A stretch of DNA of 64,000 nucleotides, taken from an uncultured Chloroflexia bacterium (GTDB taxonomy: Bacteria; Chloroflexota; Chloroflexia; QHBQ01; JAICKM01). The stretch covers positions 1,115,513 to 1,179,512 of the forward strand of contig CAWARZ010000002.1 in assembly GCA_963784695.1 (NCBI GenBank), written 5' to 3'. Every line of letters starts with the position of its first letter. Position 1 is the first letter of the stretch. The position numbers were made by a program, and so were the translations under genes. Below, one piece after another: positions 61,872 through 63,084 of this stretch. The notes under the pieces were generated by a model. That model was not told where the DNA came from, did not search any database, and worked only from the letters and a program-made list of their open reading frames with translations.

Positions 61872-61907
61872 GTGGGGGAGCGAGCGGGAATCGGCAGGAG
61901 GTTGAAA

Positions 61908-63084
61908 GTGCGCGGATCGCCCGAACCGGCGACACGCGAGGCCGCGCTGGAGAAGGATGCGGCGGCCAGCGAAACCAACCACTTCCTGTACAGCTTCGGC
62001 GGCAGCGTGGTGGCGGAGCGGGCGACGACGAGCAGCACGAACTGGCTGGTGTACCTGCACGCCGACCATTTGGGCAGCGTGAGCCTGGTCACGAACACGA
62101 GCGCCCAGCAAGTGAGCGTGCAAGACTTCACGCCGTGGGGCAGCGTGCGGGGCAGCACCGTGCCGGCGAGCACGACCACGCTGAACTACACGGGGCAGCG
62201 GCTGGACGACACGGGGCTCTTGTACTACAATGCGCGTTACTACGACCCGGCGCTCGGGCGCTTCATCAGCCCCGACAGCATCGTGCCTGGCGCCAGCATC
62301 CGGGGTAGGCGGCGCGGCGGACACACTCGGGCAAGATCCGCAGCAGGCGTTGCGCCCGCTCACGGTGGATTTCCACGAAGGCGGCTTCCTCACGAGCATT
62401 GCTCAAGAGGACGCGTTCACGCAGCAGCACGGGTTCTGGTTCGAGCTGAGCAACGCTGATCGCGGCAAGGCGAAGAGCGCCTGGGGACCGGATGACCCGC
62501 AAGCACTCAACCGGTACGCCTACGCACTTGACAACCCGCTGCAGTACACGGATCCCACGGGGCACTACTTCCGGATCATCAAAGCCGTGATGCCGATAAT
62601 GGTGGACTTCTTCGCCAAGGCTGTTCAACAACTGAAAGACTCCTCATCTAGCGTGGACATCCTTGGGGTGCTAGCGAGTGCCGCCAGCGCTGCGCTCCTG
62701 ACCATAGAGAATCCTTTCCTACTCGTGCTGGCATCAGCCGCGGTCGGGTCGATAATCTTAGCCTTCCAGCACGCCGCAGTTAGCAGCGTCAATCAAGCCA
62801 TCGATATACTTCAGCATCTGCATGACTACCTCGACGCTGCGGACATGGCCGGATCGGTTCGCTGGGTGGATCTCTACTTCACGGACGTACGTGTGATGCG
62901 AGGTTGCCCGACGATCGAGACAGGCTATGGGTCCGAGTGTGCGGGCGGCCGAGATCCCACCGACGAAGTGACCCAAGCCACGTTATGGGTCCGTTACGAC
63001 AACGGGCAAGCGCGGGGGTTCACTGTGGACGGGTCCTTTTACAACATCTTCAAGGACTGGTGGGGCGGACCGCCGGCCGAGTAA
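61908..63084 (+). CDS. Orphan RHS C-terminal tip (RHS-associated core ending DPTGH) plus ~170-aa unrecognised C-terminal toxin-like domain, frameshifted as sequenced
   Basis: GGAGG (61897-61901) sits 6 nt before GTG 61908. [13 protein letters not shown]...[35 protein letters not shown] is in track ORF 61872..62459. The continuation, LRPLTVDFHEGGF...PQALNRYAYALDNPLQYTDPTGH plus the variable domain, is in ORF 62230..63084. Switch near 62296-62300. The span is 1177 nt = 3n+1. Confidence 0.8.

What the first reader, a model, noticed from the sequence alone, without database searches (positions are those of the whole stretch)
61872..63084. Free-standing orphan RHS C-terminal tip with its own RBS, one TAG codon after and in frame with a WD40 lipoprotein gene
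Only the terminal part of an RHS/YD shell is present. Homology starts at ..[33 protein letters not shown] and runs through [35 protein letters not shown]. After a frame switch near 62296-62300 it continues as LRPLTVDFHEGGFLTS..FWFELS..PQALNRYAYALDNPLQYTDPTGH. This is the RHS-associated core with its DPxGH cleavage motif, followed by a variable domain. There is no YD-repeat body upstream. The preceding gene is a 367-aa WD40 lipoprotein whose TAG stop (61869-61871) is followed immediately, in the same reading frame, by the open frame of the tip. GGAGG at 61897-61901, 6 nt before GTG 61908, gives the tip an independent start. Orphan rhs-CT/immunity modules are established downstream of full-length rhs genes, where they act as recombination reservoirs. 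I do not recognise a solitary module behind a beta-propeller lipoprotein as a described arrangement.
Basis: partly seen in the sequence, partly recalled or inferred. Interest (0 to 1): 0.75.

Follow-up and report, generated by a model that had tools for sequence, protein, structure and literature searches.

The report
Broken orphan RHS toxin tip
This is the leftover 3' end of an RHS toxin gene (conserved tip plus a variable toxin domain), broken by a one-base insertion; it lies behind a WD40 lipoprotein gene that, in a related metagenomic contig, fills the immunity-gene slot of a normal RHS toxin array, so it is an ordinary remnant and not a new kind of system.

Summary
Bases 61942-62565 encode only the terminal RHS-associated core (TIGR03696, 54.7 bits against a cutoff of 32.5), and the core is split between two frames. 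An unrelated C-terminal domain follows DPTGH. There is no YD-repeat sequence anywhere in the 64-kb window.

The frame switch is one extra A at 62295, measured against an intact 395-aa homologue (P0002) that starts at the same GTG. As assembled, the tip is a pseudogene.

The novelty claim does not hold. In contig L001 the same WD40-tip junction (98% identical over 61150-62010) lies inside a conventional rhs array, downstream of a long rhs gene. In that array, three divergent WD40 lipoprotein genes each follow a toxin domain and precede a differently truncated rhs fragment, which is the pattern left by C-terminal displacement. The WD40 gene is therefore best read as the immunity-slot gene of a module that is missing from this window. 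Orphan tips with no rhs body nearby also occur in other Chloroflexota contigs (L076, L077).

The in-frame TAG is most likely coincidence, because TAG ends 12 of 34 genes here.

The verdict is a decaying orphan rhs-CT remnant. The one modestly new lead is a WD40 lipoprotein as a candidate immunity protein.

The parts
60768..61871 (+). WD40 beta-propeller lipoprotein gene (367 aa, lipobox LSAC, TAG stop at 61869-71). Read here as the immunity-slot gene of an rhs toxin module (CT_a) that is absent from this window.
   Evidence: Pfam WD40 E 9.9e-58. It is 96% identical in protein to WD40#1 of L001. In L001 and L072, WD40#1 follows toxin domain CT_a directly. GC3 is below that of the host genes.
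61872..61941 (+). Leader between the WD40 stop and the start of rhs-core homology. It contains GGAGG 61897-61901 and GTG 61908-61910. It is a relic of a longer orphan rhs fragment.
   Evidence: 97% identical to L001. About 78% identical to L072, where the same stretch runs on into RHS body sequence (ISPNGNTTSYAYD...). No promoter-like or terminator-like site lies in the gap.
61942..62294 (+). First part of the RHS-associated core (frame of 61872/61908): ALEKD..[50 protein letters not shown].
   Evidence: TIGR03696 model positions 2-51, 54.7 bits. 83-84% nucleotide identity to the cores of a long rhs gene and an orphan fragment in L002. Matches the last 85-110 shell residues of TccC2/TccC3, YenC2, Tse5 and Rhs1.
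62295..62295 (+). Extra A (GCC-A-GCA) that shifts the reading frame by +1. It is the lesion that makes the tip a pseudogene as assembled.
   Evidence: It is the only indel in the window relative to L001 across 60893-62565. The GC3 phase flips here. It is not in a homopolymer run. Homologues read PGxASGxGG without interruption.
62296..62565 (+). Second part of the core (frame of ORF 62230-63084). It comprises a clade-specific insert of about 65-70 aa (ASGVGGAADTLG..LTVDFHEGGF..FWFELS..) followed by PQALNRYAYALDNPLQYTDPTGH. DPTGH lies at 62551-62565.
   Evidence: TIGR03696 model positions 55-76. The insert is shared by the top homologues. Homology to L001 ends exactly at 62565.
62566..63084 (+). 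Variable C-terminal domain (172 aa, presumed toxin, activity unknown), ending in TAA.
   Evidence: No real homologue among 1.84 billion representative proteins. The only weak relative is the orphan CT in L002 (28% over 81 aa, pairwise E 2e-5). The AF2 model (pLDDT 72) shows four helices and a small sheet, and it has no PDB fold match. GC falls to 56-60%.
63219..63963 (+). Candidate immunity gene for the tip's C-terminal domain. It is a lipoprotein-like ORF (VSAC lipobox) spanning 63219-63767, and it overlaps ORF 63649-63963 in another frame, which may indicate a second frameshift near 63650.
   Evidence: It is the first ORF after the toxin domain. It has no homologues. The only family signal is a weak PepSY hit, E 0.1.

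Best explanation
The locus is a remnant of an rhs polymorphic-toxin array of the kind built by C-terminal displacement.

How such arrays form: an incoming cassette (rhs core, new toxin domain, immunity gene) recombines into a full-length rhs gene through the conserved core. The previous 3' end (truncated rhs, old toxin, old immunity gene) is pushed downstream.

What survives here, in three pieces:
1. The immunity-slot gene of one cassette, which is the WD40 lipoprotein (60768-61871). Its toxin partner (CT_a) and the rhs body are gone.
2. Directly behind it, an older displaced rhs 3' fragment. An internal deletion has shortened this fragment to just the RHS-associated core plus its own toxin domain (61908-63084).
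3. That toxin's candidate immunity gene (63219 onward).

Expression: the tip would be co-transcribed with the WD40 gene and has its own SD and GTG. An extra A at 62295 breaks the frame, so no core-toxin protein can be made from the sequence as assembled. Without a shell or an export domain, the tip could not be delivered in any case.

Shown: the anatomy, the frameshift, the shared junction in L001, the break in homology at DPTGH, and the position of the WD40 genes in the array.
Inferred: the immunity role of the WD40 protein, the order of events, and that the frameshift is a real mutation (roughly two chances in three).
For: Core identity and the two-frame split.

Intact homologue: P0002 starts at the same GTG and carries a different C-terminal domain.

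Mosaic identity between the window and L001: 83.7% over 60808-61149, 98.3% over 61150-62010, 84.5% over 62011-62565, and random beyond 62565. There is a single window-specific indel, at 62295.

L001 array, in order: a long rhs gene, CT_a, WD40#1, tip P0002, WD40#2 (28-43 nt after the P0002 stop), an rhs fragment with tip and CT, then WD40#3 (66 nt after that CT). The three WD40 proteins share only about 35% identity.

CT_a and WD40#1 are linked in both L001 and L072.

Each WD40 gene is followed by an rhs fragment truncated at a different point: ALEKD, ISPNGNTT, TAWRP, or inside the PA14 domain.

The window's leader is homologous to the L072 junction, which continues into RHS body sequence.

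There is no RHS body in the 61 kb upstream, and the upstream genes are housekeeping genes.

GC falls from 70% to 53-60% over the toxin domain and the downstream ORF.

Long neighbouring genes are intact, with end-to-end Pfam coverage, so the assembly is not indel-prone.

Orphan tips without an rhs body recur in L076 and L077.

Orphan rhs-CT/rhsI modules, and the retention of orphan immunity genes, are established (PMC3150448).
Against: The source genome could not be examined beyond base 64000, so a full-length rhs gene may lie nearby or elsewhere, and the tip may still act as a recombination reservoir.

The frameshift cannot be confirmed without reads. If it is an assembly error, the gene is intact.

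The tip, and the longer fragment in L072, each carry a good SD and start codon, whereas classic orphans usually lack initiation signals. This hints at selection for translation.

The immunity role of the WD40 protein rests on gene position alone. All WD40-rhs contigs come from one metagenome (ERZ25039495), which is itself indel-rich, plus this window.

No WD40 gene lies near RHS tips in 69 loci from other genomes.

The candidate immunity gene for the tip's own toxin has no homologues and may itself be broken.
Confidence: 0.65

Rival explanations
1. The tip is an intact, expressed gene and the extra A is an assembly error. It would be translated from GTG 61908 as a free-standing protein of about 390 aa (core plus toxin). 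It would act inside the producer as a toxin-antitoxin-like module, or be kept as a ready-to-swap cassette, as shown for the Salmonella orphan Rhs.
For: A strong SD (GGAGG, 6-nt spacer) and GTG are conserved with the intact P0002. L072 has its own GGAG and ATG at the equivalent junction. Many 300-450-aa tip-plus-CT proteins exist in Chloroflexota, and some lie far from any rhs body. In S. Typhimurium, orphan Rhs-CT is expressed from internal signals and works as a type II TA module (PMC7043789).
Against: The insertion is not in a homopolymer run. The other long genes in the window are intact. A second possible frameshift lies 1.3 kb downstream. P0049 in L076 shows degenerate conserved motifs, which suggests such tips decay. 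There is no transcription or protein evidence.
Confidence: 0.2
2. The WD40 lipoprotein is a functional partner of the downstream rhs fragment and not an immunity protein for the upstream toxin. It could be a membrane anchor, a receptor-binding subunit or an export helper, making a two-gene toxin.
For: The 98% identical block shared by the window and L001 spans the 3' part of the WD40 gene and the 5' part of the tip as one unit. Every WD40 gene is followed within about 36-110 nt by rhs sequence. Beta-propellers accompany RHS shells in Tc toxins and teneurins (PMC3482391 Table 1). A lipoprotein is on the correct side of the membrane to meet an exported toxin.
Against: The downstream fragments are truncated at four different points. 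At least one (after WD40#2) begins just after stop codons and has no start codon, which fits displacement debris and not a partner gene. WD40#2 and WD40#3 sit 28-66 nt after toxin domains. CT_a and WD40#1 travel together in two contigs. No WD40 gene lies near tips in 69 other loci.
Confidence: 0.08
3. WD40 and the tip form, or once formed, a single protein. This would happen through read-through of the in-frame TAG, or the TAG would be a recent nonsense mutation in an ancestral WD40-RHS fusion.
For: The two ORFs are in the same frame with 12 open codons between them. The diverged L072 copy is also in frame across its TAG.
Against: TAG ends 12 of 34 confident genes in the window, so it is not recoded. 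The chance of being in frame is 1 in 3 per junction, and two other junctions in L001 are out of frame. The top 120 WD40 homologues showed no RHS-family accession in the Pfam lists as displayed, which are truncated. The RHS-tip hits carried RCC1/RLD-type propeller and PA14 families, but none looked like a WD40-lipoprotein fusion. An independent SD and start codon is present. The apparent propeller-tip fusions (RCC1) turned out to be orphan fragments of a 2531-aa RHS protein with an internal RCC1 domain.
Confidence: 0.03

Closest known systems
Orphan rhs-CT/rhsI modules downstream of full-length rhs genes (Dickeya, Yersinia, E. coli; Poole et al. 2011, PMC3150448)
   Same: It is a 5'-truncated rhs fragment that keeps core sequence upstream of the DPxG motif. 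The C-terminal domain after the motif is unrelated between relatives. A candidate immunity ORF follows. Some fragments carry stops or frameshifts in the retained sequence. In the relative L001 the same tip lies downstream of a long rhs gene.
   Different: There is no rhs body within 61 kb upstream. The tip has its own SD and GTG, whereas most classic orphans lack initiation signals. The motif is DPTGH and not DPxGL. The core carries a clade-specific insert of about 65-70 aa. The preceding immunity-slot gene is a 367-aa WD40 lipoprotein and not a small cytoplasmic protein.
Salmonella Typhimurium orphan Rhs toxin expressed from internal signals as a type II TA-like module (Starsta et al. 2020, PMC7043789)
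   Same: Both are shell-less Rhs C-terminal fragments with the potential for independent expression.
   Different: In Salmonella the orphan is adjacent to the main rhs gene and a T6SS, and its expression and function were shown experimentally. Here the frame is broken and nothing is known about expression.
The rhs array on metagenomic contig ERZ25039495:contig_99494 (L001), the closest relative found
   Same: The WD40 gene, TAG, GGAGG, GTG and tip junction are shared, with 98.3% identity over 61150-62010. The core is 84.5% identical up to DPTGH.
   Different: L001 has the long rhs gene and CT_a upstream, an intact tip ORF (P0002), a different C-terminal domain, and a WD40 lipoprotein (not the window's non-WD40 lipoprotein) after that domain.
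RHS/YD shell C-terminal plug of TcC and T6SS Rhs proteins (PDB 4O9X, 6L7I, 4IGL, 8CP6, 7Q97)
   Same: Tip residues of about 43-130 align to the last 85-110 shell residues that precede the autoproteolytic cleavage site.
   Different: Only this terminal segment is present. There is no cocoon to encapsulate the toxin.

Membership tests
RHS repeat-associated core domain (TIGR03696) | Match to the model above its curated cutoff | tested here: met
   54.7 bits against a cutoff of 32.5 for ORF 61872-62459 (model positions 2-51). The remainder (positions 55-76) is found in the +1 frame at 22.7 bits.
RHS repeat-associated core domain (TIGR03696) | Terminal PxxxxDPxG[LH] cleavage motif, contiguous with the core in one reading frame | tested here: not met
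   NPLQYTDPTGH is present at 62533-62565. It is out of frame with the first half of the core because of the extra A at 62295.
Full-length RHS/YD-repeat toxin | YD-repeat shell (PF05593 / PF25023) upstream of the core | tested here: not met
   The tip gives no Pfam hit, even at E 1. tblastn with RHS-body queries finds nothing in the whole window.
Orphan rhs-CT/immunity module | 5'-truncated rhs fragment that shares core sequence with full-length rhs genes | tested here: met
   83-84% nucleotide identity to the cores of a long rhs gene and an orphan fragment in L002, starting at about 61942. This could only be tested against a related organism and not against the source genome.
Orphan rhs-CT/immunity module | The C-terminal domain after the DPxG motif varies between otherwise homologous copies | tested here: met
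   Identity to L001 falls from 84.5% to random exactly after 62565.
Orphan rhs-CT/immunity module | Located downstream of a full-length rhs gene in the same locus | tested here: not met
   There is none in the 61 kb upstream. The same junction does lie downstream of a long rhs gene in L001.
Orphan rhs-CT/immunity module | A cognate immunity gene immediately downstream that neutralises the toxin | tested here: inconclusive
   A lipoprotein-like ORF starts 134 nt after the stop. It has no homologues and may be frameshifted. Neutralisation cannot be tested with these tools.
WD40 repeat beta-propeller | Multiple WD40 repeats above the Pfam threshold | tested here: met
   PF00400, 190.6 bits against a cutoff of 27, with 6 matched repeats.
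Polymorphic-toxin immunity protein (as a role for the WD40 lipoprotein) | Encoded immediately after a toxin domain, and divergent when the toxin domains differ | tested here: met
   WD40#2 lies 28-43 nt after the P0002 CT, and WD40#3 lies 66 nt after the next CT. CT_a and WD40#1 are linked in L001 and L072. The three WD40 proteins are about 35% identical. In the window itself no toxin precedes the WD40 gene.
Polymorphic-toxin immunity protein (as a role for the WD40 lipoprotein) | Specific binding and neutralisation of the cognate toxin | not testable with these tools
   This needs co-expression or pull-down experiments. The 2012 census reported no beta-propeller immunity proteins (PMC3482391).

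The most novel reading that the evidence does not exclude
In this uncultured Chloroflexota lineage, Sec- or Tat-exported WD40 beta-propeller lipoproteins are the cognate immunity proteins of RHS-delivered toxins. The large 2012 census of polymorphic toxin systems explicitly reported no immunity proteins of this class. The window's WD40 gene would then be a retained orphan immunity gene that protects against neighbours still carrying toxin CT_a. A weaker add-on is that tip-only genes with their own SD and start codon are a translated, functional gene type and not debris.
Probability: 0.35. Interest if true: 0.5.

Novelty: new member of a known kind. Interest (0 to 1): 0.27.

Why it matters
The finding mainly serves as a caution. 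An rhs tip with no rhs body beside it, sitting next to an unusual neighbour, looks exotic in a single window. A related contig shows it to be a fragment of a normal displacement array.

Two leads of modest value remain:
1. WD40 lipoproteins repeatedly occupy the immunity slot. If this is confirmed, a common interaction fold would join the immunity repertoire, and it would suggest that these toxins act outside the cytoplasmic membrane.
2. Chloroflexota carry many short tip-plus-toxin genes, with a clade-specific insert in the RHS core, and how these are expressed and used has not been studied.

Tried and rejected
1. A beta-propeller replacing the RHS shell. Several hits (P0012, P0013, P0017, P0019, P0025) join RCC1 repeats directly to a tip. 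L073 showed that P0017 is an orphan fragment downstream of a 2531-aa RHS protein with an internal RCC1 domain, so the idea was rejected.

2. Retrieving the source contig. Exact look-ups of three window proteins failed. The genome is not among the GTDB representatives. The cluster look-up gave no accession. An exact junction 24-mer and a WD40 scan of JGI metagenomes found nothing close.

3. WD40 homologues. Only one close relative was found (P0123, on L072), and the rest are generic WD40 proteins at 30-40% identity. No RHS-family accession appeared in the Pfam lists as displayed, which are truncated.

4. Function of the tip's C-terminal domain. There is no Pfam hit. A full HMMER scan of 1.84 billion representatives gave no real homologue, because the two hits are low-complexity repeat proteins. 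The AF2 model has no PDB fold match.

5. Downstream lipoprotein. It has no homologues.

6. Programmed frameshifting. I saw no heptanucleotide slippery motif around 62295. The shift site is fixed by homology to GCC-A-GCA. This rests on reading the sequence and not on a dedicated scan.

7. TAG recoding. This was rejected on stop-codon usage.

8. RNA genes. Rfam and tRNA scans of the region found nothing.

Full report
OBSERVATION

ORF 60768-61871 is a WD40 protein (PF00400, E 9.9e-58, six repeats). It carries a lipobox (L-S-A-C, Cys52) and ends in TAG at 61869-61871. The open frame continues in the same phase from 61872. GGAGG lies at 61897-61901, six bases before GTG 61908.

The RHS-associated core model TIGR03696 matches ORF 61872-62459 at 54.7 bits (cutoff 32.5; model positions 2-51). 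It matches the +1-frame ORF 62230-63084 at model positions 55-76, a stretch that includes NPLQYTDPTGH. Third-codon-position GC flips phase at about 62250-62300.

The tip gives no Pfam RHS-repeat or YD-shell hit. tblastn with RHS-body queries finds nothing elsewhere in the 64-kb window. Against solved structures, the tip aligns only to the last 85-110 shell residues of TccC2/TccC3, YenC2, Tse5 and Rhs1.

THE FRAMESHIFT

A homologue search returned P0002 (395 aa) from ENA metagenome ERZ25039495. P0002 starts at the equivalent GTG (MRGSPEPATREAALEKD...), runs uninterrupted through the core to DPTGH, and then carries a different C-terminal domain.

The nucleotide alignment of window 60808-62565 to that contig (L001) has only two indels. 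One of them is an extra A in the window at 62295 (GCC-A-GCA). Removing that A restores PGAASGVGG, which fits the PGxASGxGG seen in all close homologues.

The insertion is not in a homopolymer run. Long neighbouring genes are intact: a penicillin amidase matches Pfam positions 1-674 of 675, an aldehyde dehydrogenase matches 1-457 of 461, and ORFs of 1157, 993 and 937 aa are open. The assembly is therefore not indel-prone, and I rate the frameshift as probably real (about two in three). Only reads can settle this.

As assembled, translation from GTG 61908 ends at 62459 after 55 out-of-frame residues, so no toxin is made.

WHAT THE NEIGHBOURHOOD SHOWS IN RELATIVES

Identity between the window and L001 is mosaic:
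- 83.7% over 60808-61149
- 98.3% over 61150-62010, which spans the 3' three-quarters of the WD40 gene, the TAG, GGAGG, GTG and the start of the tip
- 84.5% over 62011-62565
- random immediately after DPTGH

The break at DPTGH is the classic signature of a polymorphic toxin.

L001 contains, in order and on one strand:
1. a long rhs gene with a PA14 insert
2. its tip and toxin domain CT_a
3. WD40#1, the window's homologue (96% protein identity)
4. the P0002 tip and its C-terminal domain
5. WD40#2, a lipoprotein starting 28-43 nt after the P0002 stop
6. an rhs body fragment with PA14, a tip and a C-terminal domain
7. WD40#3, a lipoprotein starting 66 nt after that C-terminal domain
8. another PA14 fragment

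The three WD40 proteins share only about 35% identity.

A third contig, L072, again has CT_a followed by the WD40#1 homologue, here split by an inversion between IS3-family copies.

Each WD40 gene is followed by rhs sequence truncated at a different point:
- at ALEKD in the window and L001
- at ISPNGNTTSYAYD in L072
- at TAWRP after WD40#2
- inside the PA14 domain after WD40#3

An immunity-slot gene followed by variably truncated rhs 3' ends is what C-terminal displacement produces. Orphan rhs-CT/rhsI modules of this kind are well documented (PMC3150448).

The window's 70-nt leader (61872-61941) is homologous to the L072 junction, which continues into RHS body sequence. Homology to rhs cores starts at about 61942. 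The window's tip therefore looks like a longer orphan fragment that was shortened by an internal deletion.

INTERPRETATION

The locus is best read as a remnant of such an array. It consists of an orphan immunity-slot gene (the WD40 lipoprotein, whose toxin CT_a and rhs body are absent), then an orphan tip with its own toxin domain, then that toxin's candidate immunity gene (the lipoprotein-like ORF from 63219).

The left edge of homology lies at the start of the WD40 gene. Upstream are housekeeping genes, including oppD- and oppF-like ATPase genes on the other strand. GC falls from about 70% to 53-60% across the toxin domain and the downstream ORF, which fits exchanged cassettes.

No promoter-like or terminator-like site separates the WD40 gene and the tip, so the two would be co-transcribed.

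Orphan tips without an rhs body are not unique to this window:
- L076 (GCA_009389605.1) has three tips and a 50-residue RHS-body remnant, but no full rhs gene within 8 kb.
- L077 has a lone 5'-truncated fragment next to an aminotransferase gene.

THE IN-FRAME TAG

TAG terminates 12 of 34 confident genes in the window, so it is a normal stop codon. Being in frame has a one-in-three prior.

The L072 junction is also in frame, while the junctions after WD40#2 and WD40#3 are not. That makes two of four, against 1.3 expected by chance, and several of these contigs are indel-rich.

No WD40 lipoprotein-RHS fusion was evident among the listed homologues of either protein. The RCC1-tip proteins that looked like propeller fusions are orphan fragments of a 2531-aa RHS protein with an internal RCC1 domain. 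I treat the in-frame arrangement as coincidence.

WHAT REMAINS OPEN

1. Whether the module is solitary. The window ends 916 nt after the tip, and the source contig (2.6 Mb, held by NCBI and ENA) could not be retrieved.

2. Whether the tips are meant to be translated. Both the window/L001 junction and the L072 junction carry an SD and a start codon, unlike most classic orphans. Salmonella also sets a precedent for expressed orphan Rhs toxins acting as TA-like modules (PMC7043789).

3. What the toxin does. The 172-aa domain has no homologue in 1.84 billion representatives. Its only relative is a weak match to the L002 orphan C-terminal domain. Its AF2 model (pLDDT 72, four largely hydrophobic helices plus a small sheet) matches no PDB fold.

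4. Whether the WD40 lipoproteins really are immunity proteins. The evidence is positional only, and it comes from one metagenome plus this window. None of 69 RHS-tip loci from other genomes has a WD40 gene nearby. The 2012 census stated that beta-propellers had not been found among immunity proteins and that lipoprotein immunity was exceptional (PMC3482391). This is the one lead with some novelty.

VERDICT

The object is a new member of a known kind (an orphan rhs-CT remnant), probably a pseudogene, and of low to moderate interest.

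Noticed in passing
window 62296-62500; also P0002, P0005, P0012, P0052 and most top hits: The RHS-associated core carries an insert of about 65-70 aa (..ASGxGGxAxTLG..LTVDFHExGF..FTQxxGFWFxLS..) between RFxSxDSIVPG and PQALNRYxY. 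This corresponds to the gap between TIGR03696 model positions 51 and 55. The insert is shared by the listed top hits, which are mostly short proteins and, where named, come from Chloroflexota (Herpetosiphonaceae, Kallotenue, Chloroheliales). Its role near the autoproteolytic site is unknown.
   Followed up: partly
L001 6669-7300 and 13357-13800; L073 911-8506: In relatives, a PA14 domain (L001) or RCC1 repeats (L073, 2531 aa) are inserted between the last YD repeats and the tip, flanked by Pro/Thr-rich linkers. Orphan fragments truncated inside these inserts look like PA14-tip or RCC1-tip fusion proteins.
   Followed up: partly
window 63219-63963: ORF 63219-63767 (lipobox VSAC) and ORF 63649-63963 overlap by 119 nt in different frames. 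The coding signal appears to pass from one to the other near 63650, which may indicate a second frameshift. The joined protein has no homologues, and its only family signal is a weak PepSY hit (E 0.1).
   Followed up: partly
window 57943-60401 (- strand) and 60402-60767: oppF-like and oppD-like ABC ATPase genes are present, but no permease or binding-protein genes lie upstream of oppD. The WD40-tip island sits where those genes would be expected, so the island may have inserted into, or replaced part of, an opp operon.
   Followed up: no
window 60870-60925 compared with L001 about 8950-9010: The WD40 N-terminus in L001 reads ..SPSRRVALL..LTAC, which is twin-arginine-like. The window has ..APAWRLAIL..LSAC, so RR has become WR. 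Both have an unusually long extension of about 36 aa before the hydrophobic region. The export route, and whether export still works, were not examined.
   Followed up: no
window 63101-63125, 63141-63188 and 63965-63980: A hairpin (CCTCCCACGGGAGG) lies just after the tip's stop codon. A 48-nt palindrome (two 24-nt arms with no spacer) lies before the lipoprotein ORF. A 16-nt inverted repeat (94% complementary) at 63101-63116 and 63965-63980 brackets the downstream lipoprotein cassette.
   Followed up: no
window 62450-64000: GC drops from about 70% (the window average) to 53-60% over the toxin domain and the downstream ORFs. The WD40 gene (60-66% GC, low GC3) is also atypical for this genome.
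   Followed up: partly
L072 799-1948 and 3724-4873: Two IS3-family copies (HTH_Tnp_1 plus rve) in inverted orientation flank a segment that splits the WD40#1 homologue at the position equivalent to window 61442. This shows IS-mediated rearrangement of these arrays.
   Followed up: partly
L001, L002 and L072 (ENA ERZ25039495): These metagenomic contigs contain many apparent single-base indels. For example, there are three frame changes within 1 kb of the L002 orphan, and the rhs and WD40 genes are split. Gene calls and frame relations taken from them should be treated with caution.
   Followed up: partly
L076 2765-8936 (GCA_009389605.1, VIYF01000001.1): Three successive RHS tips and a 50-residue RHS-body remnant are present, with no full-length rhs gene within 8 kb. 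P0049 in this locus has degenerate conserved motifs (LNDTGQRRD, HARSYDP), which suggests decay of an orphan array that has lost its rhs body.
   Followed up: partly
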